Positions 43,361 through 63,370 of a stretch of DNA of 64,000 nt are shown here, piece after piece; positions within the stretch are counted from its first letter, which is position 1; each line of letters starts with the position of its first letter. Source of the stretch: a virus; IMG/VR virus record IMGVR_UViG_3300022821_000014, positions 26,968 through 90,967 of that record; one strand, 5' to 3'. The position numbers were made by a program, and so were the translations under genes. Under the pieces are notes generated by a model. That model was not told the DNA's origin. It saw only the letters and a list, made by a program, of their open reading frames with translations, and made no database searches.

Positions 43361-43395
43361 ATTGTTGATTCTAAGGGTGATATTTACGGTTGTCC

Positions 43396-44940
43396 ATGAA
43401 TAATCCAAAACTTACAATATTGATTGAGCGAATTGTTGACGAAGTCCTCAAAGAGGACCGAGCTGACATTTCTGCTGACTATGTTGCTTCTATAAAAAGC
43501 AAAGACCCAGAGCTGTATAATGACCTTATGCAGCATGCTGAGTTTGTCATCCAAGCTACGAAAAACAAGTATAAACCATCTGATAAACTTGTTACCATAC
43601 ATCGTCTGTTGAATTCGGATCCAAACCTTGACCCGAGATCTTCAGGAGATACACATGGTGTCCGCCTTTTTATCGACTACCTCGCACGTGAGGAAGGTAA
43701 GGATTCAGAGGACTCCAGAGAGTTTGCTGGCAAAGCTAAGCGATGGTATCAATCTACGATTGATGCTTTGCTCAAAAAAGTCTTCCAGGAATCAACTACT
43801 GAAAAGAAGCGTAAAGTGCTAAGTGAAGCAGTTAGAAAGCCTTTCAACATGGACCTGCCTAGGGATCTACTAACCTTGGCAGATATCTTCACCCTAAACA
43901 GCTTTCAGCTAGTTGTTGTGGGTGGAGCGGTTCGTGATGCTCTATTGGGTAAGGAACCAAAGGACTACGACGTTGCAACAAACGCACAGCCCGACGAGGT
44001 GTTGTCTATGTTGGCAGGGCACCCACAGTTCAAGACACTGGAAATCGGCAAATCCTTTGGTGTTATTAACGTAATCACTCCCGAAGGGAATGAATACGAA
44101 GTAGCTACCTATCGAAATGATATTGGAAGTGGACGTCGGCCTGATGCAGTTGAATTTACTACAATTGAGAACGACGTAAAGAGACGAGACCTTACAATCA
44201 ATGCACTCTTCTTTGACATTGCTGAGCAAGAGATCATCGATTATGTCGGCGGCATCAAAGATTTGGAGGCTGGGCGCATCCGAGCGGTTGGCGACGCCAA
44301 AGAAAGATTTGATGAGGACCCGCTTCGTATCCTACGTGCAATTAGGTTCTCAGCACGAATGGGTGCAGGGCTTGATGACAATACTGAAGAAGCTATCCGC
44401 AACGACAACACACTAAGAGGTGTCTCACCTGAGAGGGTTCGTGACGAGTTCCTCAAGTCAATCAAGACTGCCAGGTCAGTTCCAGCCCTGATGAGGCTTT
44501 ACGACAGTTTTGATCTCTGGGGACAAATCCTTCCAGGATTGAAAATCAACACGTGGTATCAAGAGACAAAAAACATTCCAGTGCTGCTTTCTTTACTTCT
44601 CCGTGAGAATCCTCCCAAGAGCCTGGGCAAAAAGATGAACAAGTTGAAATACAGTGTCGTTGAAACTCGTCAAATTATGTTTTTAACGATGTTCCAGGGT
44701 TTGACACCAGAAAACGCATATCAAATGAAGAAGCTGTGGAAATCAACCAGATTGACAGACCAGGATCTCGAAGAGTTCGCTAGGCTGAGTAACCACCCTA
44801 AAATGCAGCTTGTAAAGGCATTCAACCAGTACACACCTACGGTGGACGGGCAAGAACTGTTGGCACAGGGCTTCAAGGGTCGTGAGCTTGGACAGGAAAT
44901 TGAACGCAGAGAGATGGATCTGTTCAAAAGGCTTATCTAA
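43396..44940 (+). CDS. cca: CCA-adding tRNA nucleotidyltransferase (class II) with a ~140-aa N-terminal extension
   Basis: VGGAVRD, KDYDVAT, EVATYR, RRDLTINA, DEDPLRILRAIRF, SPERV. Confidence 0.92.
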   Translation: MNNPKLTILIERIVDEVLKEDRADISADYVASIKSKDPELYNDLMQHAEFVIQATKNKYKPSDKLVTIHRLLNSDPNLDPRSSGDTHGVRLFIDYLAREEGKDSEDSREFAGKAKRWYQSTIDALLKKVFQESTTEKKRKVLSEAVRKPFNMDLPRDLLTLADIFTLNSFQLVVVGGAVRDALLGKEPKDYDVATNAQPDEVLSMLAGHPQFKTLEIGKSFGVINVITPEGNEYEVATYRNDIGSGRRPDAVEFTTIENDVKRRDLTINALFFDIAEQEIIDYVGGIKDLEAGRIRAVGDAKERFDEDPLRILRAIRFSARMGAGLDDNTEEAIRNDNTLRGVSPERVRDEFLKSIKTARSVPALMRLYDSFDLWGQILPGLKINTWYQETKNIPVLLSLLLRENPPKSLGKKMNKLKYSVVETRQIMFLTMFQGLTPENAYQMKKLWKSTRLTDQDLEEFARLSNHPKMQLVKAFNQYTPTVDGQELLAQGFKGRELGQEIERREMDLFKRLI

Positions 44941-55175: not shown

Positions 55176-55246
55176 GCAGCATTGGTGTAGTGGAAACATC
55201 TTTGGCTTCCAACCAAAGGTCACGAGTTCGAACCTCGTATGCTGCT
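55176..55246 (+). tRNA. tRNA-Gly(TCC)
   Basis: TTTGG-CTTCCAA-CCAAA; full cloverleaf. Confidence 0.92.
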
Positions 55247-55320
55247 TTTTTCTCAGGCCCTCCCGAGGTAACTTTCGGGTCCTGCGTGAACAAGAGATTG
55301 GTTGTCTTTTCTGGGAAAAT

Positions 55321-55393
55321 GGGATGTTAGCATCAAGGAGATGCAACGGGTTCCTCGACCCTATCGAGGCAGGTTCAATTCCTGTGCATCCCA
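55321..55393 (+). tRNA. Atypical tRNA, Lys-like body with an 8-nt anticodon loop
   Basis: Body resembles 57288-57359; GGG-TTCCTCGA-CCC. Confidence 0.5.
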
Positions 55394-55409
55394 CTTACAA
55401 ATGACTAAC

Positions 55410-55482
55410 TTGGAAGGTGGATGAAGTTCACTGCTAGTTTCATCACTGTGGGGTGAGGACAGTGAGTCGCAACTCTCCCCAA
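55410..55482 (+). ncRNA. Four-way-junction RNA with potential kissing loops
   Basis: GATGAAG/TTTCATC, ACTGT/ACAGT, GAGT/ACTC; loops TTCACT and GGTGAG are complementary. Confidence 0.4.
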
Positions 55483-55485
55483 TTT

Positions 55486-55559
55486 GGGTTCTTAGTGTAA
55501 CTGGATTAGCACTCCAGATTTGTTAATCAACAGTCTGGGTTCAAATCCCAGGGAACCCA
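55486..55559 (+). pseudogene. tRNA with disrupted anticodon arm
   Basis: Good acceptor, D and T arms; CCAGA-TTTGTTAA-TCAAC is mostly unpaired. Confidence 0.55.
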
Positions 55560-55612
55560 CTGGAGCGAAAGCCCGTGCACGAAGGCTTGACAGTCGGAGA
55601 GACGACATTTCT

Positions 55613-55683
55613 AGGTCACTGGTGTAATGTAGCATGACGATCTCCAAAATCGTTCGGTCTGAGTTCAAGTCTTAGGTGGCCTG
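55613..55683 (+). tRNA. tRNA-Trp(CCA)
   Basis: ACGAT-CTCCAAA-ATCGT. Confidence 0.9.
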
Positions 55684-55745
55684 TAAATCCTAGAACTGAA
55701 GGTTCCTGCCCTGGGCAGCGAAAGCTGGTTGGTAGCCTTCAAAAT

Positions 55746-55818
55746 GTCTTCGACGCCGACAGGAACGGCAGCTCGCCTTCTAAGCGAGTTTTTGAGGGTT
55801 CGAGTCCTTCCGAAGACG
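55746..55818 (+). tRNA. tRNA-Arg(TCT)
   Basis: CTCGC-CTTCTAA-GCGAG. Confidence 0.88.
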
Positions 55819-55864
55819 CTGAGAGTGTAAGACTGCCGATTATGGCAGCCCCTGCACTCGATTA

Positions 55865-55937
55865 GGGGCATTGGTCCAGTGGTTGAGGACGCTAGGCTGT
55901 CTACTTAGAAGCACGGGTTCGATTCCCGTATGCCCCG
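55865..55937 (+). tRNA. tRNA-Asp(GTC)
   Basis: CTAGG-CTGTCTA-CTTAG. Confidence 0.88.
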
Positions 55938-56037
55938 CTAGTTTCCGTTCAGGAAACAATAAATGAGCCGTGTAGCCTGAGGGCCTAGGAGAGTCGCTAT
56001 CTCTTAGAAGTTCGAACCCCATAGGGCAGCGGCATAT

Positions 56038-56111
56038 AGGATCGTAGCATAACTGGTAGTGCGCCTCCCTGTCACGGAGCGAGTGTGCGAGTTCAAATCT
56101 CGTCGGTCCTG
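56038..56111 (+). tRNA. tRNA-Asp(GTC)
   Basis: CTCC-CTGTCAC-GGAG. Confidence 0.88.
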
Positions 56112-56256
56112 TCAAGTTCTATTTCTAGAAATATGTGTATAACCTCGATAAGTGAGGGAACTGTTTTTTCTATCCTCCTACTTAGAAGAGTAACGGCAAA
56201 TGTTTCTACCGAAAAAGTTGTTTTGCCGTGCTATTTACTGTCAAGGGTAAAAGGTT

Positions 56257-56547
56257 ATGACAAGAATCACACTTAGAACATTGAGAGCCATGATCCGTGA
56301 AGCGGTTCGTGAAGAAATGAAGAACGGCCTAAACGAGGCAGGCTTCATGGGCGCCGGCGGTAAAATGCAAGGCGCTCAACGGGGTGGAGTAGGTAGTCGT
56401 CAGGCACTTTCCAAAACTGGTGGAATGACAGGTTATTCCTCCATGAATTTGGATGAGTTGGTTGCAGCGATGAAATCAGCCTCCGAGGCAGATAAACCAC
56501 ACATCAAAAAGGCTATCACAGCTCAGCTCAAGGCAGCTGGCTGGTGA
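56257..56547 (+). CDS. Small leader-bearing protein
   Basis: MTRITLRTLRAMIREAVREEMKNGLNE; TATTTA upstream. Confidence 0.75.
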   Translation: MTRITLRTLRAMIREAVREEMKNGLNEAGFMGAGGKMQGAQRGGVGSRQALSKTGGMTGYSSMNLDELVAAMKSASEADKPHIKKAITAQLKAAGW

Positions 56548-56667
56548 GCAAATAGCTGGTATTACCAGCTTTTAGAGAAAAAAACTCTAAATAGGTTCAA
56601 AAGACCTGATTATAGTGTTATACTCTTAGGTAGGAAGTCAAACAGACCTTTTACCTAAGAGTACGAC

Positions 56668-56886
56668 ATGGAATACCAGAACTTTTCGATCAATACTGCT
56701 GAAGATCTTGTCAAGGGATTTGCCATTGGCATCCGAGACAAGGTCATTGACCTCACTGAGGTTCGAGATATCGTATTGGCGAGTACGGATGATGAGCGAC
56801 TTACCCAAGTTGTTCTTGAGAAGGTCCAGCTGGAGTTGGAGTGCATGGAGCACTTTGCTCTCAGGGTAGCTGCTACGGCAGCCTGA
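56668..56886 (+). CDS. Hypothetical protein
   Basis: 72-aa ORF. Confidence 0.55.
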   Translation: MEYQNFSINTAEDLVKGFAIGIRDKVIDLTEVRDIVLASTDDERLTQVVLEKVQLELECMEHFALRVAATAA

Positions 56887-56942
56887 AAAAAAGCTGTTCA
56901 CAATCATTTATGTCTGTCCTAAACTACTTAGGTAGACAACAT

Positions 56943-57014
56943 GGGGCCTTAGTGCTAACGGGAACACACCTGCTTTGCACGCAGGAATTAAGGGTTCGAT
57001 TCCCTTAGGCTCCA
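56943..57014 (+). tRNA. tRNA-Ala(TGC)
   Basis: CCTGC-TTTGCAC-GCAGG; G3:U70. Confidence 0.92.
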
Positions 57015-57206
57015 TTATGAACTGCATAACCAACTGTAGTCAAGGAACGTCACTGTAGATTCAAGACGTGACTGCTCGGAGAGTCGAGCAAAACTTCGGT
57101 GGTGTCAGGCTTCAAGATACTCCACCTAAAACAGACTGGTAGTGAAGTAGGTACGTTCCACCACAAGGGGCAGACAAGTGGTAGGAAATGAAGACCTGCC
57201 CGTTCT

Positions 57207-57279
57207 CGGTCGTTGGTGTCAGCGGCAGCACACTGGGCTCTTAACCCACGAAGCAGAGGTTCGAATCCTCTACGACCGA
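57207..57279 (+). tRNA. tRNA-Lys(CTT)
   Basis: TGGG-CTCTTAA-CCCA. Confidence 0.9.
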
Positions 57280-57287
57280 CTAAACTT

Positions 57288-57359
57288 GGGACGTTAGCAT
57301 CAAGGCGATGCACTGGCCTTTTAAGCCATCTGAGCTGGGTTCGATTCCCAGGCGCCCCA
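57288..57359 (+). tRNA. tRNA-Lys(TTT)
   Basis: TGGC-CTTTTAA-GCCA. Confidence 0.88.
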
Positions 57360-57361
57360 CT

Positions 57362-57823
57362 ATGAAAAAGTGTTCTTCTTGCAAAGTATCCAAAACGAGA
57401 AATGAGTTCAATAAAAACTCTTCTAAGTGTGATAACCTTCAAAGCATGTGCCGTGCTTGCAATAAGAAAACTGCTAAAAATTATTATGCTAAAAACAAGT
57501 CGCATCACCGATTAGTCTGTAGCCAGATTAAAAAAAGGCGCATCAGAGAAAATCAAAATAAACTTTTCGAGGTGCTACGCAGAAGTGAGTGTGTTGATTG
57601 CGCTGAAAGAGATCCGTTGGTATTAGAATTTGACCATGTCCAAAAAAAGGACCACGGAATATCAGAGTTGCTTTGTGGTGGGTATAGCTGGCACCGAATT
57701 TTTGCTGAAATGAAAAAATGTGAAATACGCTGTGCAAACTGCCACAACAAGAAAACACACCAAGCAAATAATTCGTATCGTTGGAGGCTTTTAGTTGAAC
57801 TAAAATCTTGTACGTCTCACTAA
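57362..57823 (+). CDS. HNH endonuclease
   Basis: CSSC...CRAC; CVDC...LEFDH...KCEIRCANCH. Confidence 0.85.
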   Translation: MKKCSSCKVSKTRNEFNKNSSKCDNLQSMCRACNKKTAKNYYAKNKSHHRLVCSQIKKRRIRENQNKLFEVLRRSECVDCAERDPLVLEFDHVQKKDHGISELLCGGYSWHRIFAEMKKCEIRCANCHNKKTHQANNSYRWRLLVELKSCTSH

Positions 57824-57834
57824 ACGAGGTTCAC

Positions 57835-58080
57835 ATGTTGATTCAAGTATGGAAAGATAGTAATGGACTAGGTGTTATGCCGAAGCCAAATGCTGATGCG
57901 CTCTGGGAGAGCGGTCACATGTGTATCAACGCAGTCCTCGTTCGTGAATATGAAGCAAAAACCTGGTACGAAGCGATGTGTAAGCATCATGAGTTTCAAG
58001 GTTGGGGCGAGTACAATCCTCCTCGGCTAATGAATGGTGACATCGACCCTGTGGTTTTACAGCCACTAGATGATGTGTGA
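57835..58080 (+). CDS. Hypothetical protein
   Basis: GAGGT RBS; 81 aa. Confidence 0.55.
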   Translation: MLIQVWKDSNGLGVMPKPNADALWESGHMCINAVLVREYEAKTWYEAMCKHHEFQGWGEYNPPRLMNGDIDPVVLQPLDDV

Positions 58081-58268
58081 TAATAATGTCCTATAGTAGA
58101 CTGGTTTAGCCATCTCGATCAATCGATGATAAATTATGAACATAGTTCGGATGAGTACGACTAACAAGGGTTGCAAGTTCATTGCTTGCCTGGGGGCCTC
58201 CAAACGCCTCTGGTAGTTTAATGAAAACACTTGTAAATTTTCTTCTTACTCCAGCAGAGTAAGAATAT

Positions 58269-58342
58269 GGCGCAGTCTTCTAATGGCTTAGGAACCTTGG
58301 CTTTCATCCAAGACAATGTGGGTTCGAGTCCCATCTGCGTCA
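58269..58342 (+). tRNA. tRNA-Glu(TTC)
   Basis: CTTGG-CTTTCAT-CCAAG. Confidence 0.9.
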
Positions 58343-58348
58343 CTCAAT

Positions 58349-58423
58349 GGTCCTGTCGTCTACTATGGTTTAGGACACCAACCTCTCAAGTTGGAGAACC
58401 GAGTTCGAACCTCGGTGGGATCA
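58349..58423 (+). tRNA. tRNA-Glu(CTC)
   Basis: CCAAC-CTCTCAA-GTTGG. Confidence 0.9.
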
Positions 58424-58485
58424 TTCGAATAGGTTCTAGTTTCAGCGACTAAATTAAAATAGCACGCCAGCTATGCCTAAAACAT

Positions 58486-58571
58486 GGCCGAGTGGGGGAA
58501 TTGGCAGACCCGCAGGATTAAGGATCCTGTTCCCATAAAAAGGAGTGCAGGTTCGATGCCTGTCTCGGCTA
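58486..58571 (+). tRNA. tRNA-Leu(AAG)
   Basis: CAGGA-TTAAGGA-TCCTG; long variable arm. Confidence 0.85.
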
Positions 58572-58746
58572 CTATTTTGGTGCGAGCTTCAAGAAAGTCC
58601 CTACGAGTACTGAAGCCCTGGTTTAGGGAGCAGCAGTTATGTCACTTGCCAAATCCGTGAGTGGAGAATGACGGCATCAACAATTTCAAGAGGTTCTCCC
58701 GAGTCAGTGGGGATTAAAGCGGAGATTCGGCGAACGCCTCTTATTT

Positions 58747-58829
58747 GCTCGAATGGTGGAATGGCAGACACACACGCCTGAGTAGCGTGACCACGAAAGT
58801 GGGTAAGAGTTCGAATCTCTCTTCGAGTA
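58747..58829 (+). tRNA. tRNA-Leu(GAG)
   Basis: CACGC-CTGAGTA-GCGTG; long variable arm. Confidence 0.88.
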
Positions 58830-58832
58830 CTA

Positions 58833-58910
58833 AAAGAGAAGATGGTTCGCAGGGTGACGGCGACTAATAATCGCTGGTGAAACGACGCCGTACATCTTGA
58901 AAATCTCTTT
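58833..58910 (+). ncRNA. AGAUGGUUCG-family structured RNA, copy A
   Basis: AAGAGA/TCTCTT and AGATG/CATCT stems; internal CGGCGA-CTAATAA-TCGCTG. Confidence 0.6.
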
Positions 58911-58919
58911 CTTTGATAT

Positions 58920-58961
58920 CGTGGGTTGGAAAAGTAGCAATTCGCTAGGCTCATAACCTAG
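58920..58961 (+). pseudogene. tRNA-Met(CAT) 5' part, truncated after the anticodon arm
   Basis: CTAGG-CTCATAA-CCTAG; no T arm follows. Confidence 0.75.
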
Positions 58962-59062
58962 GGATACTCAAAACAAAAACTTTAGATAGAACTTTCCCAA
59001 ATTGGAAAGATTTCTATTTCCCGATGGGGGCAATGGCGCAATGGCGTGCCAGCGGACTGTAA
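58959..59062 (+). repeat. 104-bp exact direct repeat, copy 1 (HNH 3' end + tRNA-Tyr 5' half)
   Basis: Identical to 59603-59706. Confidence 0.9.
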
Positions 59063-59106
59063 AATGTTACACAGACATTTGAAGTTCGGTTACTCATACT
59101 AAAAGT

Positions 59107-59706
59107 ATGAAGTGTTTGGAGTGTTCAAACCCTTTGGAAACAAAGGATGCAAAGAAGTTTTGTTCCCGTTCTTGTTCGGCAACGTTCAATAACAGGAATC
59201 GAGTTCTGACTTCTAAAACCAAGTCTAAGATCAGGGTCGGCGTTCTTGGTTTCCATGCTGAACTTCCAAGAAGTCAGTACGATTATGTGTGTGACAAATG
59301 TTTGGCTGCATTCACTTCGTATGTTTATATGAGGAAAAGTCGATCGGTTAGATGCAAATCTTGCAAAAGGGTGGTGAAGAGAGCAACTAAGGATGCACGG
59401 TCGATTTTGGAGTTATCAAAACGAACAATAACCAAGTTGCTTAAAAGAGCTAACTTTGGTTGCGTTATGTGTGGCTGGGATCGCACGACGTTGGACATCC
59501 ATCACATTTTGCATAGAAGTAAAGGTGGAACCGATGCACACCAAAACTTGATAGCATTATGTCCGAATTGCCATCGTTTGGCACATGAGGGCAAATATGA
59601 CTTAGGGATACTCAAAACAAAAACTTTAGATAGAACTTTCCCAAATTGGAAAGATTTCTATTTCCCGATGGGGGCAATGGCGCAATGGCGTGCCAGCGGA
59701 CTGTAA
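59107..59706 (+). CDS. HNH endonuclease; stop codon lies in the tRNA-Tyr anticodon loop
   Basis: KFCSRSC; CVMCGW...DIHHI...GGTDAHQNLIALCPNCH. Confidence 0.9.
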   Translation: MKCLECSNPLETKDAKKFCSRSCSATFNNRNRVLTSKTKSKIRVGVLGFHAELPRSQYDYVCDKCLAAFTSYVYMRKSRSVRCKSCKRVVKRATKDARSILELSKRTITKLLKRANFGCVMCGWDRTTLDIHHILHRSKGGTDAHQNLIALCPNCHRLAHEGKYDLGILKTKTLDRTFPNWKDFYFPMGAMAQWRASGL

Positions 59707-59750
59707 CTCCGTGGCCTTCGGGCGGGTAGGTTCGATTCCTACTGTCCCCA
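59670..59750 (+). tRNA. tRNA-Tyr(GTA)
   Basis: GCGGA-CTGTAAC-TCCGT; variable arm with TTCG loop. Confidence 0.9.
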
Positions 59751-59852
59751 CTTAGAAGAGAACAGATATACATAAGTCAAGTAGTCTGTGCTAGAGCGGT
59801 ACTTGTAAATGTTAGTAGCCCGCCATCTTCGCATAATCTATCTCTGTTGAAG

Positions 59853-59939
59853 CGTATTACATCTCCAGTCACAATATTGGGGTGTAGGAAGTGGGGCTCG
59901 TAAGTGACTACGAGGAAGCAGTGCCCAATCGCTGCTACG
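59853..59939 (+). ncRNA. Four-way-junction RNA with potential kissing loops
   Basis: TACATCTC/GGGGTGTA (loop GTCAC), CTCGTA/TACGAG (loop AGTGAC), GCAGTG/CGCTGC. Confidence 0.45.
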
Positions 59940-59954
59940 GTTTAACAGGATTTT

Positions 59955-59986
59955 GGGGTCTTAGCTCACCTGGGAGAGCGTCTGTC
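59955..59986 (+). pseudogene. tRNA 5' half (Ala-like)
   Basis: GGGGTCT-TA-GCTC-ACCTGGGA-GAGC-G-TCTGTC; pairs with the 3' half of 60523-60594. Confidence 0.7.
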
Positions 59987-60001
59987 GACATACTTATCGG
60001 T

Positions 60002-60532
60002 ATGGACAACAAACTACTTGAACAGTATGTGCAGGCTAAGCTGAGTACATATGACATAGCTGCTGCGACTGGCAAAAGCCAATCAACAGTTAGATACTGG
60101 CTCAAGAAATACGGATTGAAAACCAGTCCATATAAGACCAAAAGGCAATGCCTGGTCTGTGAAAAGGTTTGCGCAACCACAAGGGCAAAATACTGCTCGA
60201 ATGGTTGCCAGAACGAAGCTCAGTACAACAAGTACATCCTGGAATGGAAACTTGGAAACGTCTCTGGAAACATGAGTAGCGGAAGAAATCTGAAGCTAAG
60301 CAATCATGTTCGTCGATTCATCCGAGAAAAACACGGAGAACACTGTTCAATATGTGGGTGGAATGAGCGTCACAAAATCACTGGTAAGGTACCAACAAAC
60401 GTTGACCATGTTGACGGAAATCCGTACAATACTAGTGAAGACAACTTGAGAGTGTTGTGTCCAAATCATCACTCACTAACAGAAACTTACGGAGCTTTGA
60501 ATAAAGGCAACGGTAGAAAAATGGGGCTTTAA
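60002..60532 (+). CDS. HNH endonuclease with N-terminal HTH; overlaps the downstream tRNA
   Basis: STYDIAAATGKSQSTVRYWLKKYG; YCSNGCQ; CSICGW...VDHVDGN...NLRVLCPNHH. Confidence 0.9.
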   Translation: MDNKLLEQYVQAKLSTYDIAAATGKSQSTVRYWLKKYGLKTSPYKTKRQCLVCEKVCATTRAKYCSNGCQNEAQYNKYILEWKLGNVSGNMSSGRNLKLSNHVRRFIREKHGEHCSICGWNERHKITGKVPTNVDHVDGNPYNTSEDNLRVLCPNHHSLTETYGALNKGNGRKMGL

Positions 60533-60594
60533 CTCAGCGGGAGAGTGTTACGCTGTCAGACAAAAGGTGAAGGGTTCAAGTCCCTTAGGCTCCA
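60523..60594 (+). pseudogene. Chimeric tRNA (Ala body, GTC loop, broken anticodon stem)
   Basis: G3:U70; TTACG/ACAAA barely pairs. Confidence 0.6.
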
Positions 60595-60596
60595 CT

Positions 60597-60663
60597 AAGA
60601 GAAGATGGTTCGCCGCCAATGGCCTGTGAAACGGCCGAATGGTTATGGTCTTGAAAATCTCTT
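60597..60663 (+). ncRNA. AGAUGGUUCG-family structured RNA, copy B
   Basis: AAGAGAAGATGGTTCGC...GTCTTGAAAATCTCTT. Confidence 0.6.
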
Positions 60664-60667
60664 TCAT

Positions 60668-61031
60668 GGGTTCATGGTCTAATAGATTTGACACCACTCC
60701 TTCAGCCTACCTAGGATAAAGCTGTAGTGAAGTGTTTAAACGGCAAGACACACGCTTGCCGGCGTGTAATGCAGGTTCGAGTCCTGTTGAATCTACTAAC
60801 TGTTCTGACGCTGGCAACGTAAATGCTGAAGCTGGGTTAGCTACCAGTGGATAAGGGCCCTTGAATGGGTAAGCTATATAATCCATCAATAGTAAGTAAC
60901 TTATAGTTTAACTGGAAAAACGCCCATACGGGAGATGAGGGTTCGAGCCCCTCTGAGCCAAAACTAATGAGATTTCGGTGTACAACGAATCAGGATTTAT
61001 GGTAGAGGTTTGAGTCCTCCGCAGAACGCCA
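60668..61031 (+). pseudogene. Cluster of decayed tRNA remnants
   Basis: 5' stub at 60668; GCC-like remnant with T arm at ~60724-60795; D+T arms with CCC-ATAC-GGG mini-arm at ~60900-60960; T-arm remnant ending CCA at ~61031. Confidence 0.5.
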
Positions 61032-61036
61032 ATTTT

Positions 61037-61085
61037 CGAGAATAGATGGTTCGCAGGTCATGAACTTGCCGTACGTCTTTTCTCG
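61037..61085 (+). ncRNA. AGAUGGUUCG-family structured RNA, copy C
   Basis: CGAGAA/TTCTCG, AGATG/CGTCT, GCAGGT/ACTTGC. Confidence 0.6.
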
Positions 61086-61088
61086 TTT

Positions 61089-61124
61089 GCCGCCTAAGCT
61101 AATCTGGTGAAAGCGCCGAGTTGA
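61089..61124 (+). pseudogene. tRNA-Phe-like 5' half broken in the anticodon
   Basis: GCCGCCT-AA-GCT-AATCTGGTGAA-AGC-G-CCGAG-TTGA. Confidence 0.7.
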
Positions 61125-61156
61125 TTAGGCAGCATAAACTATTGTAGCCATACTAA

Positions 61157-61390
61157 CAATATGGAACTGCACGGTCTACGCACTTGAAAAATAGATTATT
61201 ACAAGCTAAGGTGATTGAGAATCAATGCCATGCTTGTGCACAAATACCCACGTGGAAGGGCAAGAAATTAGTTATGGCCTTGGACCATATTAATGGTGTG
61301 AGAAACGACAATAGACTTGCAAATTTGAGGTTACTTTGCCCGAACTGCAATTCACAACAGCCTACATTTTGTAGGGCAAACGGAGCCTGA
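61157..61390 (+). pseudogene. N-terminally truncated HNH endonuclease; overlaps tRNA-Phe
   Basis: CHAC...W...LDHINGVRNDNRLANLRLLCPNCN. Confidence 0.75.
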
Positions 61391-61454
61391 GCAAGTGAGG
61401 TCATTGCGCTGGTCTGAAAAACCAGAGAACTCGGATCGATACCGAGAGGTTCCA
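61382..61454 (+). tRNA. tRNA-Phe(GAA)
   Basis: CTGGT-CTGAAAA-ACCAG; T loop ATCGATA. Confidence 0.85.
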
Positions 61455-61500
61455 CTAAGTGCCTCGGAGAGTCAGGAACAAAACCTGAAGGCGGCACTAA

Positions 61501-61572
61501 GAGTAGATGGTTCGTTTTACGTCAACCGCCTCCCTAAAAGGGGATAAGGAACGATTTAGCTGTACGTCTCTC
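61501..61572 (+). ncRNA. AGAUGGUUCG-family structured RNA, copy D
   Basis: GAGTAGATGGTTCG...CTGTACGTCTCTC. Confidence 0.55.
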
Positions 61573-61576
61573 AATT

Positions 61577-61606
61577 TCTAGCCTAGCCAAGTGGCAAGGT
61601 GTTCAC
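61577..61606 (+). pseudogene. tRNA-Asn-like 5' stub
   Basis: TCTAGCC-TA-GCC-AAGTGGCAA-GGT, similar to the 5' end of 62194-62265. Confidence 0.65.
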
Positions 61607-61635
61607 TTATAGTTTGTTTGTGATAGGATACTATC

Positions 61636-62187
61636 GTGTCACACGCATCAGAAAAGGTAAAACTTTGGCGTCAACAAACCAAAAAACGGATAGTAAAAGC
61701 TTTTGGAGGTTCATGTGGTATATGTGGATATAGTCGTTGTAACGACTCTTTAGCGCTTCACCATATCAACCCAGAAGAAAAAGACTTTTCCTTAGGGGCT
61801 ATCAGAGCTAATGCTTGTTCATGGGCGAAGATAGTTGTTGAACTTAGAAAGTGCATATTGGTGTGTCATAATTGCCATTCAGAAATTCATGCAGGCCTGG
61901 CGCATGTGTCGAAAGACATCACAAGGTTTGATGAGAGTTTCGCTGAATATCGGAAACCTAAACCGAAGTTTAGCGGCGTTTTTTGTCACTGTGGTCAAGA
62001 ATTGACTTTTGAACAAAAGAAGTACTGTTCGAATGTTTGTTATGGACTAAAAAACAGAAAAATTGACTGGGATGCATTTGATCTATCAGCGTTGTACGCC
62101 AAATATCCTGTTACACAAATAGCAGATATACTTGGCGTCAGTGACCAGGCTGTGCATAAAAGGCTGAAAAAATTAGGTTTGAAATAA
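61636..62187 (+). CDS. HNH endonuclease with C-terminal HTH
   Basis: GGSCGICGY...LALHHINP...KCILVCHNCH; IADILGVSDQAVHKRLKK. Confidence 0.9.
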   Translation: MSHASEKVKLWRQQTKKRIVKAFGGSCGICGYSRCNDSLALHHINPEEKDFSLGAIRANACSWAKIVVELRKCILVCHNCHSEIHAGLAHVSKDITRFDESFAEYRKPKPKFSGVFCHCGQELTFEQKKYCSNVCYGLKNRKIDWDAFDLSALYAKYPVTQIADILGVSDQAVHKRLKKLGLK

Positions 62188-62193
62188 CAATAT

Positions 62194-62265
62194 TCTGGGG
62201 TGGCCAAGTGGTAAGGCGATCGGCTGTTAACCGATAGAGCGTGGGTTCGACCCCCACCCCCAGAG
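62194..62265 (+). tRNA. tRNA-Asn(GTT)
   Basis: ATCGG-CTGTTAA-CCGAT. Confidence 0.93.
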
Positions 62266-62354
62266 CTAACTGATTACCGTTCTAAACCCTCAAACTTTAT
62301 TATTTGAGGACTTGTCGGTTGGTTTTATATCTTAGCAGATACAAAATGCTATTT

Positions 62355-62425
62355 TCGGGGTTCGTCTAATGGCAGGACCGTGGTTTCTGGTACCACTAAT
62401 GGGAGTTCAAATCTCTCACCCCGAG
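62355..62425 (+). tRNA. tRNA-Gln(CTG)
   Basis: GTGGT-TTCTGGT-ACCAC. Confidence 0.88.
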
Positions 62426-62431
62426 TAATTT

Positions 62432-62513
62432 GGAAGGTACGGTGCATGGTGCACAACCAGTCTTGAAAACTGGCGCATGTGAAAGCATGGTGGTTCGACT
62501 CCTCTACCTTCCG
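62432..62513 (+). tRNA. tRNA-Ser(TGA)
   Basis: CCAGT-CTTGAAA-ACTGG; long variable arm. Confidence 0.85.
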
Positions 62514-62531
62514 CTCAGTAAAGTGAAATAT

Positions 62532-62603
62532 TCGGGAGTAGTTCAATGGTAGAGCGCTTGACTTTGAATCAAGTGGTTGTGAGTTCGAGTCTCACCTCCC
62601 GAT
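62532..62603 (+). tRNA. tRNA-Gln(TTG)
   Basis: CTTGA-CTTTGAA-TCAAG. Confidence 0.92.
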
Positions 62604-62606
62604 TTT

Positions 62607-62695
62607 GGAAGATAAACCTAGAGGGTTCTGGGGCTAGTTTGCTAAACTAAGTGGTCAAGAAATTGACTGGGGATCAAGACCTCTATCTTCCGCCA
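62607..62695 (+). tRNA. tRNA-Ser(GCT), CCA encoded
   Basis: TAGT-TTGCTAA-ACTA; long variable arm; T loop ATCAAGA. Confidence 0.82.
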
Positions 62696-62701
62696 ACTCA
62701 T

Positions 62702-62775
62702 TCCCGAGTGTTCTAATGGTTTATGATGCTGACCTCTGAAGTCATGCGATGTTGGTTCAAATCCAGCCTTGGGAG
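62702..62775 (+). tRNA. tRNA-Gln(CTG)
   Basis: TGAC-CTCTGAA-GTCA. Confidence 0.85.
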
Positions 62776-62924
62776 CTAAATGGTCAAATAGCTGGTTTTC
62801 TAAAATGGCAAATCCCCATTATTGGGTTTACACTACCAGCTGATTGTGTTTCTATTAGAGAATAGAGAAACGGGTCGCAAAGACCTAGCTACTCTAGACC
62901 TTGAAAACTGAATAAGAATACCAC

Positions 62925-62998
62925 GCTTCATAAGCATTGTTGGTTCGATGCACTCGCCTTGTAAGCGAGAGAGAACGGTTCGAGTCCGTTATGAAGCT
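62925..62998 (+). tRNA. tRNA-Thr(TGT)
   Basis: CTCGC-CTTGTAA-GCGAG. Confidence 0.92.
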
Positions 62999-63001
62999 CT
63001 C

Positions 63002-63069
63002 GAATAGGCTGTGCTTGTCTGGTCACCTAAGGCTGTTTCACAGCCCCACTATCAGTGGAACCAGAGTAT
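63002..63069 (+). ncRNA. Pseudoknotted inter-tRNA RNA, copy 1
   Basis: GCTGTG/CACAGC crosses CTGGT/ACCAG; hairpin CCACT/AGTGG; core GGTCACCTAAGG. Confidence 0.65.
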
Positions 63070-63140
63070 GCTCGCATAGTTCAATGGAAGAATATTCGGC
63101 TTCGAACCGAACGATCAAGGTTCAAATCCTTGTGTGAGTG
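63070..63140 (+). tRNA. tRNA-Arg(TCG)
   Basis: TTCGG-CTTCGAA-CCGAA. Confidence 0.9.
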
Positions 63141-63143
63141 CTA

Positions 63144-63214
63144 GAATAGCGACCGACAGTGTTTGGTCACCTAAGGGTGTTTCGGTCCCATCTTGAAAGA
63201 TGAAACCAAGGTAT
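63144..63214 (+). ncRNA. Pseudoknotted inter-tRNA RNA, copy 2
   Basis: GACCGA/TCGGTC crosses TTGGT/ACCAA; hairpin CATCT/AGATG; core GGTCACCTAAGG. Confidence 0.65.
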
Positions 63215-63288
63215 GCTCTGTTAGTGAAATTGGATTATCACGCTACCCTACGAAGGTTGTATTTCAGGTTCGAATCCTGGACAGAGTG
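63215..63288 (+). tRNA. tRNA-Arg(ACG)
   Basis: ACC-CTACGAA-GGT. Confidence 0.88.
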
Positions 63289-63295
63289 CTGAAAT

Positions 63296-63366
63296 GCGTT
63301 ATTAGTTTAGTGGTAAAATTCCTGCTTGCCATGCAGGGGTCCCGAGTTCGACCCTCGGATAACGCT
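63296..63366 (+). tRNA. tRNA-Gly(GCC)
   Basis: CCTGC-TTGCCAT-GCAGG. Confidence 0.92.
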
Positions 63367-63370
63367 CTTA

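What the first reader, a model, noticed from the sequence alone, without database searches (positions are those of the whole stretch)
58833..61572. Multi-copy AGAUGGUUCG...GUACRUCU small RNA family, each copy followed by a tRNA stub
Seen: four copies (58833, 60597, 61037, 61501; a looser fifth at 59757-59845) share an outer GAGA/UCUC stem, an inner AGAUG/CRUCU stem (degenerate in copy B) and GUUCG, around a variable apical domain. Copy A shows a clean anticodon-arm-like hairpin (CGGCGA-CUAAUAA-UCGCUG). All four are followed within 10 nt by a truncated tRNA 5' end (58920, 60668, 61089, 61577), and three lie just upstream of HNH sequence. Inference: a conserved protein-binding base with a variable loop, like Y RNAs. 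They could be decoys for anticodon nucleases or, more speculatively, scaffolds linked to the HNH cassettes with the stub acting as a guide.
Basis: partly seen in the sequence, partly recalled or inferred. Interest (0 to 1): 0.75.

Follow-up and report, generated by a model that had tools for sequence, protein, structure and literature searches.

The report
Repeated hairpin spacer between phage tRNAs
Four to five copies of a small folded RNA fill the gaps between tRNA genes of an uncultured giant T4-type phage; they are most likely built-in spacer or processing hairpins of the long tRNA transcript, not Y-RNA-like decoys or guides, and I found them in no other genome.

Summary
The repeat is real. 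AGATGGTTCG occurs exactly four times in the 91-kb contig, always on the tRNA strand. A fifth, degenerate copy follows tRNA-Tyr.

Each copy starts one base after an encoded tRNA 3' end and stops 2-8 bases before the next tRNA 5' end, so these are inter-tRNA spacers.

The "tRNA stubs" are explained by HNH gene cassettes inserted into the anticodon loops of the downstream tRNAs. The stub after copy C and the remnant before copy D are two halves of one old tRNA-Phe.

The base of the hairpin is conserved (5' block 71-89% identical) while the apex is not (30-46%). C and D fold into the consensus as their minimum-energy structure, B nearly does, and A prefers another register.

Rfam gives no match to Y RNA, ribozymes or tRNA. 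The contig has no Ro60, RtcB or RNase III gene, and the apical sequences have no targets.

A complete IMG/VR scan, a JGI metagenome scan, INPHARED and 3.5 Mb of related tRNA arrays hold no second example, so covariation could not be tested. The tool that could fetch near-identical contigs was closed.

My best reading is a cis-acting trailer/leader hairpin released as a stable by-product, comparable to T4 species 1 and 2 RNAs. This scan has noted other spacer hairpins in phage tRNA arrays, but none with this sequence.

The parts
58831..58912 (+). Copy A: trailer of tRNA-Leu(GAG). Outer stem AAGAGA 58834-58839 / UCUCUU 58904-58909; AGAUGGUUCG 58840-58849; GUACAUCU 58890-58897.
59752..59850 (+). 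Copy E: degenerate copy directly after tRNA-Tyr. It shares only the flanks with the other copies.
60596..60665 (+). Copy B: trailer of the tRNA at 60523-60595. Its flanks are nearly identical to those of A, one inner-stem pair is lost, and GUAC is absent.
61034..61086 (+). Copy C: the minimal form. A 6-bp, a 5-bp and a 6-bp helix, with a 4x4 internal loop GUUC/CGUA.
61498..61574 (+). Copy D: trailer of the old, split tRNA-Phe. It has the same 4x4 loop (GUUC/UGUA) in its MFE fold.
57800..57822 (+). Possible half copy: TGTACGTCTC, the 3' strand of D, at the end of the HNH-like ORF 57362-57823.
   Evidence: by eye; a 10-mer match, p about 0.01
58920..58962 (+). 5' part of a tRNA-Met-like gene (anticodon arm CTAGG-CTCATAA-CCTAG), cut off by the HNH1 cassette.
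   Evidence: sequence read directly; 110-nt duplication 58953-59062 / 59597-59706
60668..60795 (+). Interrupted tRNA-like gene after B. Acceptor GGGTTCA pairs with TGAATCT at 60788-60794. ARAGORN calls a tRNA once about 45 nt are removed.
61089..61124 (+). 5' half of the old tRNA-Phe (acceptor GCCGCCT, D arm, CCGAG, then TTGA of the anticodon loop).
   Evidence: (same 5' sequence starts the tRNA-Phe of L304)
61463..61497 (+). 3' half of the old tRNA-Phe (CTCGG, degenerate T arm, AGGCGGC-A-C), directly followed by copy D.
   Evidence: (family D15)
59107..59706 (+). HNH1 homing-endonuclease gene. Its 3' end overlaps the 5' half of tRNA-Tyr.
61184..61390 (+). HNH3, a truncated HNH gene. With the new tRNA-Phe (61382-61455) it forms the insert that splits the old tRNA-Phe.
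61636..62187 (+). HNH4 gene, lying between an Asn-like 5' stub (61577-61612) and the replacement tRNA-Asn (62194-62266).

Best explanation
The copies are a paralogous family of cis-acting inter-tRNA spacers. Each is at once the 3' trailer of one tRNA and the 5' leader of the next.

Inferred mechanism. The element is transcribed within the long tRNA precursor and folds into an extended imperfect hairpin whose base brings the two tRNA ends together. This would keep neighbouring tRNAs from misfolding into each other. It would also present a defined double-stranded, partly sequence-specific site to a processing nuclease. After the 3' endonuclease and RNase P have cut, the element would be released as a 55-85-nt stable hairpin by-product.

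Shown here: the position, strand, repeat structure and folding potential; the conserved base against a variable apex; the origin of the stubs.

Inferred only: transcription, cleavage and stability.

The association with stubs and HNH genes is a consequence of HNH cassettes homing into the anticodon loops of the tRNAs in this part of the array.
For: Every copy begins 1 nt after the encoded N73-C of a tRNA or tRNA 3' remnant and ends 2-8 nt before the next tRNA +1, on the tRNA strand. The 5' block is 71-89% identical between copies and the 3' block 38-78%, while the apex is 30-46%, which is random level. A and B share 17/17 and 17/17 identical flank bases around unalignable middles. That pattern points to constraint on the base rather than recent duplication. 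C and D adopt the consensus fold as their MFE, and A and C have z=-4.7 and -3.7. No sigma-70-like promoter or intrinsic terminator falls within any copy. The micro-ORFs starting ATG GTT CG are 5-25 codons long and unconserved after residue 4. Other spacers of the same array are also structured, for example 55820-55864 with z=-4.2. One spacer hairpin, GGAGAGAC with a covarying stem, is shared with other giant-phage tRNA arrays, so processing-type hairpins are a feature of these arrays. In T4 the stable RNAs rnaD and rnaC follow tRNA-Arg by 1 and 6 nt, next to the segB homing endonuclease gene. The new tRNA-Phe trailer CTAAG joins the old tRNA-Phe 3' half, which fits a donor in which tRNA-Phe carried the same trailer.
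Against: No second genome carries the element, so there is no covariation evidence. The stems barely vary, and the outer-stem 'compensations' are register shifts of GAGA/UCUC. Copy A's MFE is 7.7 kcal/mol better than its consensus fold. B, D and E are not significantly more stable than shuffles. Near-invariance of the 16-nt 5' strand is more than a plain hairpin needs and remains unexplained. There are no expression data, and no candidate nuclease is encoded on the 91 kb available.
Confidence: 0.45

Rival explanations
1. The copies are decaying leftovers with no function of their own: native trailers multiplied by tandem duplication of tRNA-plus-spacer units, and kept similar by ectopic gene conversion during repair of HNH-made breaks.
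For: All copies lie in the 58.7-61.6-kb sub-array that holds four HNH cassettes and several tRNA fragments. E and B are visibly degenerating. The 5' block resembles the variable-loop-to-T-loop segment of local tRNAs, for example CGGGAGATGAGGGTTCG at 60929 and CGAGAGAGAACGGTTCG at 62966. No relatives were found.
Against: The flanks are identical where the middles are unalignable. Conversion tracts would be expected to carry the middle along. The hairpin potential of A and C is far beyond that of shuffles.
Confidence: 0.2
2. The element acts at the DNA level. It would be a recombination or recognition site used in shuffling of tRNA/HNH cassettes, comparable to the PeSL cassettes of T4-type phages or to a nuclease target.
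For: One strand carries a strictly conserved 16-nt block. HNH genes are close by. A possible half copy sits at the end of the HNH-like ORF at 57800-57822, and GTACRTCT occurs 7 times on the + strand and 0 times on the - strand.
Against: The HNH insertion points are in anticodon loops, 35-45 nt or more away from the elements. There is no promoter-like site in the copies. Imperfect-palindrome geometry is preserved through different junction layouts, which suits RNA folding.
Confidence: 0.13
3. The copies are trans-acting small RNAs whose conserved base binds a protein, that is, Y-RNA-like RNAs, sponges or decoys.
For: A conserved base with a variable apex is the layout expected for a protein-binding RNA. 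Processing at the flanking tRNAs would release them with paired ends. tRNA spacers acting as sponges are known in E. coli (3'ETS-leuZ; from my own knowledge).
Against: No Y_RNA or YrlA match at E<=10. No TROVE, RtcB or RNase III gene on the contig. The anticodon-like loop is in A only. The apical sequences have no complementary targets in the contig.
Confidence: 0.12
4. The copies are a new self-cleaving ribozyme class that trims the CCA-less tRNA 3' ends, doing what theta (HDV-like) ribozymes do.
For: The position within 1-3 nt of tRNA 3' ends matches the theta ribozyme context (PMC10879173). Conserved unpaired nucleotides GUUC/YGUA lie in an internal loop. The neighbouring spacers at 63000-63214 have been read as HDV-like by another agent of this scan.
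Against: The fold is fully nested, with no pseudoknot common to the copies. No ribozyme family matches at E<=10. Copy B has lost the loop motif. Only about 8 unpaired bases are conserved.
Confidence: 0.05

Closest known systems
Phage T4 species 2 and species 1 RNAs (rnaD, rnaC)
   Same: Small structured RNAs of a T4-type phage encoded immediately after a tRNA (1 and 6 nt gaps) in a tRNA cluster that also holds a homing endonuclease gene (segB). Their function is still unknown.
   Different: There is no sequence homology. The apparent GAUGGUUC..UACAUC match to T4 rnaD is not conserved among rnaD homologues of T6, RB10, JS98 and others. rnaC has a canonical T arm and the present copies do not. 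T4 has one copy of each RNA, whereas this phage has a 4-5-member family.
Theta (minimal HDV-like) ribozymes next to phage tRNAs (PMC10879173)
   Same: They lie within a few nucleotides of phage tRNA 3' ends and are proposed to act in 3'-trailer processing.
   Different: Theta ribozymes have a double-pseudoknot fold with a catalytic C in J4/2. The present copies are nested hairpins with no match to an HDV-type model.
Y RNAs / YrlA with Ro60 (Rfam RF00019, RF02553)
   Same: Terminal stem formed by the 5' and 3' ends, with a variable internal or apical region. This scan has noted phage examples in tRNA arrays (e1-261863).
   Different: No covariance-model match, no Ro-binding helix motif, no tRNA-like domain, and no TROVE gene on the contig.
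RNase III processing hairpins of phage polycistronic transcripts (for example T7 R1.1); RNase III cleavage of T4 species 1 RNA (from my own knowledge)
   Same: About 20 bp of imperfect helix interrupted by a symmetric internal loop, lying between functional units of one transcript (C and D folds).
   Different: RNase III sites need no conserved sequence. Here a 16-nt strand is nearly invariant. Cleavage is untested, and no RNase III gene is on the contig; the host enzyme is unknown.

Membership tests
Y RNA / YrlA | Match to the Rfam covariance models RF00019 / RF02553 | tested here: not met
   cmscan of 58400-62300 at E<=10 lists no Y_RNA or YrlA match. The only YrlA match in the array is 17.5 bits against a gathering score of 69, at 58148-58250, which is not one of the copies.
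Y RNA / YrlA | Ro60/TROVE protein encoded nearby | tested here: not met
   PF05731 gives no match on the 90,967-bp contig, while the controls matched. Caveat: the contig is about 20% of the genome.
Y RNA / YrlA | Conserved Ro-binding helix with a bulged C (GGUCCGA/UUGACC type; from my own knowledge) | tested here: not met
   The copies read AGAUGGUUCG / YGUACRUCU.
HDV-like / theta ribozyme | Located within about 5 nt of a tRNA 3' end | tested here: met
   Each copy starts 1 nt after the encoded N73-C. The criterion comes from PMC10879173.
HDV-like / theta ribozyme | Double-pseudoknot P1-P2-P3-P1.1-P4 fold | tested here: not met
   The MFE and consensus folds are fully nested. No HDV-type Rfam match at E<=10.
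HDV-like / theta ribozyme | Catalytic cytosine at the first position of J4/2 | not testable with these tools
   No J4/2 junction can be assigned without the fold.
tRNA / pseudo-tRNA / NCCA-ended tRNA mimic | Cloverleaf or acceptor-T minihelix ending in NCCA | tested here: not met
   ARAGORN and the Rfam tRNA model give no match on the copies. Their 3' ends read UCUCUUUC, UUCUCGUUU and CUCAAUUUC. C has 6+5 stacked pairs, but no 7-nt T loop.
T4 rnaD (species 2 RNA) | Sequence and structure homology to the conserved rnaD core | tested here: not met
   Alignment of 7 rnaD homologues shows that the T4-like GAUGGUUC and UACAUC words are not conserved.
Guide RNA (CRISPR-like variable segment between conserved flanks) | The variable segment matches a target | tested here: not met
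   The best matches of the apical segments in the 91-kb contig are 11-12 nt, which is chance level. Matches against 3.5 Mb of fetched loci are no better.
RNase III-type processing hairpin | About two helical turns of imperfect duplex with an internal loop, between units of one transcript | tested here: met
   C: 6+5+6 bp around a 4x4 loop. D has the same loop geometry.
RNase III-type processing hairpin | Cleavage by RNase III | not testable with these tools
   This needs an in vitro assay or RNA end mapping.

The most novel reading that the evidence does not exclude
The near-invariant 5' strand (GAG-N-AGAUGGUUCG) together with the GUUC/YGUA internal loop is the recognition or catalytic core of a new tRNA-maturation device of giant T4-type phages. 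It would be either the site of a phage-encoded sequence-specific endoribonuclease or a new small self-cleaving motif, and it would free CCA-less tRNAs from the array independently of host 3'-processing enzymes.
Probability: 0.1. Interest if true: 0.7.

Novelty: new member of a known kind. Interest (0 to 1): 0.3.

Why it matters
Large phage tRNA arrays are made as long precursors, and how they are cut up is poorly understood. T4's own tRNA-linked stable RNAs have had no function for fifty years. A family of trailer hairpins with a sequence-constrained base would be a handle on array processing in giant phages. If the element is only a spacer, the finding is ordinary. What it then adds is a clean example of HNH cassettes splitting tRNA genes and leaving halves behind.

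Tried and rejected
1. Homologues elsewhere. Three IMG/VR pattern scans were run. The last one was complete: 38 hits, all in coding or unrelated sequence, none next to a tRNA. A JGI metagenome scan found 0. blastn against INPHARED found nothing. nhmmer and a stem-aware descriptor over about 3.5 Mb of fetched phage tRNA arrays found nothing. Whole records of five giant phages that share another spacer motif showed no enrichment over the control.

2. Close relatives. Only the 66% relative, L348, could be fetched, and it lacks the element.

3. A single-sequence covariance model of copy C recovered A (15 bits) and D (10 bits) only locally. I did not build it further, because there was nothing outside the contig to add.

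4. Homology to T4 rnaD: rejected.

5. Split-tRNA test with ARAGORN on the old tRNA-Phe halves: no call. The T loop AACAAAA is degenerate, so that assignment rests on acceptor and anticodon-stem complementarity and on identity of the 5' half to the tRNA-Phe of L304.

6. Promoter or terminator reading: no site within any copy.

7. Coding reading: the ATG GTT CG micro-ORFs are unconserved.

8. Guide reading: no targets.

9. Ro60, RtcB, RNase III and RegB genes: none on the contig. The RegB control matched nowhere, so that result is uninformative.
Full report
**Source.** The window is the last 64 kb of a 90,967-bp IMG/VR contig, about 20% complete. Earlier notes of this scan describe it as an uncultured salt-lake giant T4-type phage. 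From 55.1 kb to the contig end it carries a tRNA array: 26 ARAGORN genes and 22 Rfam tRNA matches. HNH genes are interspersed in it (Pfam HNH, HNH_3 and HNH_5 on 59107-59706, 60002-60532, 61184-61390 and 61636-62187).

**Observation.**
- AGATGGTTCG occurs at 58840, 60603, 61044 and 61505, all on the + strand, and nowhere else in the contig.
- The two-block pattern AGATGGTTCG..GTACRTCT is expected 0.00 times by chance.
- Copy C is the minimal form: 6 bp (CGAGAA/UUCUCG), a U.U mismatch, 5 bp (AGAUG/CGUCU), a 4x4 loop (GUUC/CGUA), then a 6-bp apical stem with a 5-nt loop. Its energy is -20.3 kcal/mol and z=-3.7.
- D has the same loop (GUUC/UGUA), closed by the same G-C pairs, in its MFE fold.
- B keeps 4 of 5 inner pairs and lies 1.3 kcal/mol above its MFE.
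- A can form the consensus at -18.3 kcal/mol but prefers a shifted long hairpin at -26.0.
- E (59752-59850) shares only the flanks and is not stable (z=-0.5).
- Between copies, the 5' block is 71-89% identical, the 3' block 38-78%, and the apex 30-46%, which is random level.
- A and B have identical flanks around unalignable middles.

**What the copies are placed between.** Every copy begins one base after the encoded N73-C of a tRNA:
- A follows tRNA-Leu (end 58830).
- E follows tRNA-Tyr (59751).
- B follows the tRNA at 60523-60595.
- D follows a tRNA 3' remnant ending AGGCGGC-A-C at 61497.

Each copy ends 2-8 nt before the next tRNA 5' end. They are therefore inter-tRNA spacers.

**The stubs.** They are explained by insertions into the downstream genes.
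- The stub after C (61089-61124) has acceptor GCCGCCT, a D arm, CCGAG and the first four bases of an anticodon loop. The same 5' sequence starts a tRNA-Phe in L304.
- The segment before D (61463-61497) supplies CTCGG, a degenerate T arm and AGGCGGC.
- Between them lie a truncated HNH gene and a complete new tRNA-Phe. So one old tRNA-Phe was split in its anticodon.
- ARAGORN does not call the rejoined halves. This assignment rests on complementarity and on the L304 match.
- The "stub" after B pairs GGGTTCA with TGAATCT at 60788-60794 and becomes a callable tRNA once about 45 nt are removed.
- The stubs after A (Met-like) and D (Asn-like) precede HNH1 and HNH4 and their replacement tRNAs.
- A 110-nt duplication (58953-59062 / 59597-59706, 98% identical) records a repeated HNH1 event.

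**Known families.**
- Rfam at E<=10 over 58400-62300 gives only tRNAs and noise. No Y RNA, YrlA, HDV, hammerhead, twister or other ribozyme covers the copies.
- A sub-threshold YrlA match (17.5 bits against 69) lies elsewhere in the array.
- The contig has no TROVE, RtcB or RNase III gene.
- The theta ribozyme paper (PMC10879173) defines a tRNA-adjacent HDV-like class. The position criterion is met here, but the fold criterion is not.
- T4 has rnaD and rnaC right after tRNA-Arg, beside segB. A tempting word match to T4 rnaD is not conserved among rnaD homologues. T4 is therefore an analogue, not a relative.

**Other genomes.**
- A complete IMG/VR scan for the core gave 38 chance hits.
- A JGI metagenome scan gave none, and INPHARED gave none.
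- HNH-based fetching brought in about 160 loci, many with tRNA arrays. Neither nhmmer nor a stem-aware descriptor finds the element in them.
- The best relative is L348, whose HNH is 66% identical. It shares the trailer CTATTTTGG after tRNA-Leu, a trailer start CTAGAATAG after ..GGGCGGCA, and another spacer motif, but not this element.
- An identical HNH1 protein sits on six other contigs, up to 284,850 bp.
- Covariation could therefore not be tested. Within the family the stems hardly vary. The outer-stem differences are register shifts of GAGA/UCUC, which I do not count as compensatory.

**Mechanism.** I read the copies as cis-acting trailer/leader hairpins of the array precursor (confidence 0.45). 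Position, strand and the conserved base against a free apex are shown. Folding is shown for C and D and is likely for B. Transcription, cutting and accumulation are inferred.

Supporting context:
- No promoter or terminator site falls within any copy.
- Other spacers in the same array are also structured.
- A second spacer hairpin is conserved across giant-phage arrays with a covarying stem.

Unexplained: the 16-nt 5' strand is almost invariant. A plain insulating hairpin would not need that. It suggests a sequence-specific partner, or descent from the variable-loop-to-T-loop segment of a tRNA, which it resembles.

**Verdict.** The specific Y-RNA, decoy and guide readings are not supported. 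The stub and HNH association has an ordinary cause. The family is an orphan member of a known kind, namely structured RNAs linked to tRNAs in phage tRNA clusters. Interest is modest unless relatives show covariation or the RNA proves to be cut or bound specifically.

Noticed in passing
window 55561-55611; L348 3105-3138 and 5165-5198; L439, L450, L452, L471, L477, L491: A spacer motif GAAAGCC..GGC-TTGACARTC(N)-GGAGAGAC-(N')GAY lies just upstream of tRNAs in this phage, in its relative L348 (twice) and in several giant-phage IMG/VR contigs. The pair flanking the GGAGAGAC loop covaries (UA 4, CG 4, GC 2). It is not in Rfam. GGAG in a loop recalls T4 RegB cleavage sites (from my own knowledge). 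It may be the 'phage-wide leader hairpin' noted in e1-5922750; I did not check this.
   Followed up: partly
window 57800-57822: The end of the HNH-like ORF 57362-57823, which starts inside the CTA trailer of tRNA-Lys, carries TGTACGTCTC, the 3' strand of copy D. This may be a sixth element whose 5' half was replaced by the gene.
   Followed up: no
window 58425-58485, 63000-63069, 63142-63214; L348 2821-2862: Several trailers start with C-T-N-GAATAG (TCGAATAGG, TAGAATAGC). These include the twin pseudoknot RNAs and one trailer in the relative L348 (CTAGAATAG after ..GGGCGGCA). Copy C reads CGAGAATAGATGG. This may be a shared trailer-start signal.
   Followed up: partly
window 55176-63367 (tRNA 3' ends): Most tRNAs of the array encode N73-C-T-A/T/G instead of CCA. 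A 516-aa CCA-adding enzyme (PolyA_pol head domain) is encoded at 43390-44940. This suggests trimming to N73(-C) and rebuilding of CCA.
   Followed up: no
window 58953-59062 and 59597-59706: A 110-nt direct repeat (98% identical) comprises the last 68 nt of HNH1 plus the 5' half of tRNA-Tyr up to the anticodon. The HNH1 stop codon TAA lies in the tRNA-Tyr anticodon loop. This records a nested or repeated homing event.
   Followed up: partly
window 60523-60595: ARAGORN reads this tRNA with a 4-base anticodon (gtca). Rfam scores it 41.5 bits as a tRNA. Its upstream 5' stub (59953-59990) pairs even better with its acceptor 3' strand than the current 5' half does.
   Followed up: no
window 55820-55864: The trailer of tRNA-Arg (CTGAGAGTGTAAGACTGCC...) forms a very stable hairpin (z=-4.2). 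Its start resembles CTAAGAGTAG of copy D.
   Followed up: no
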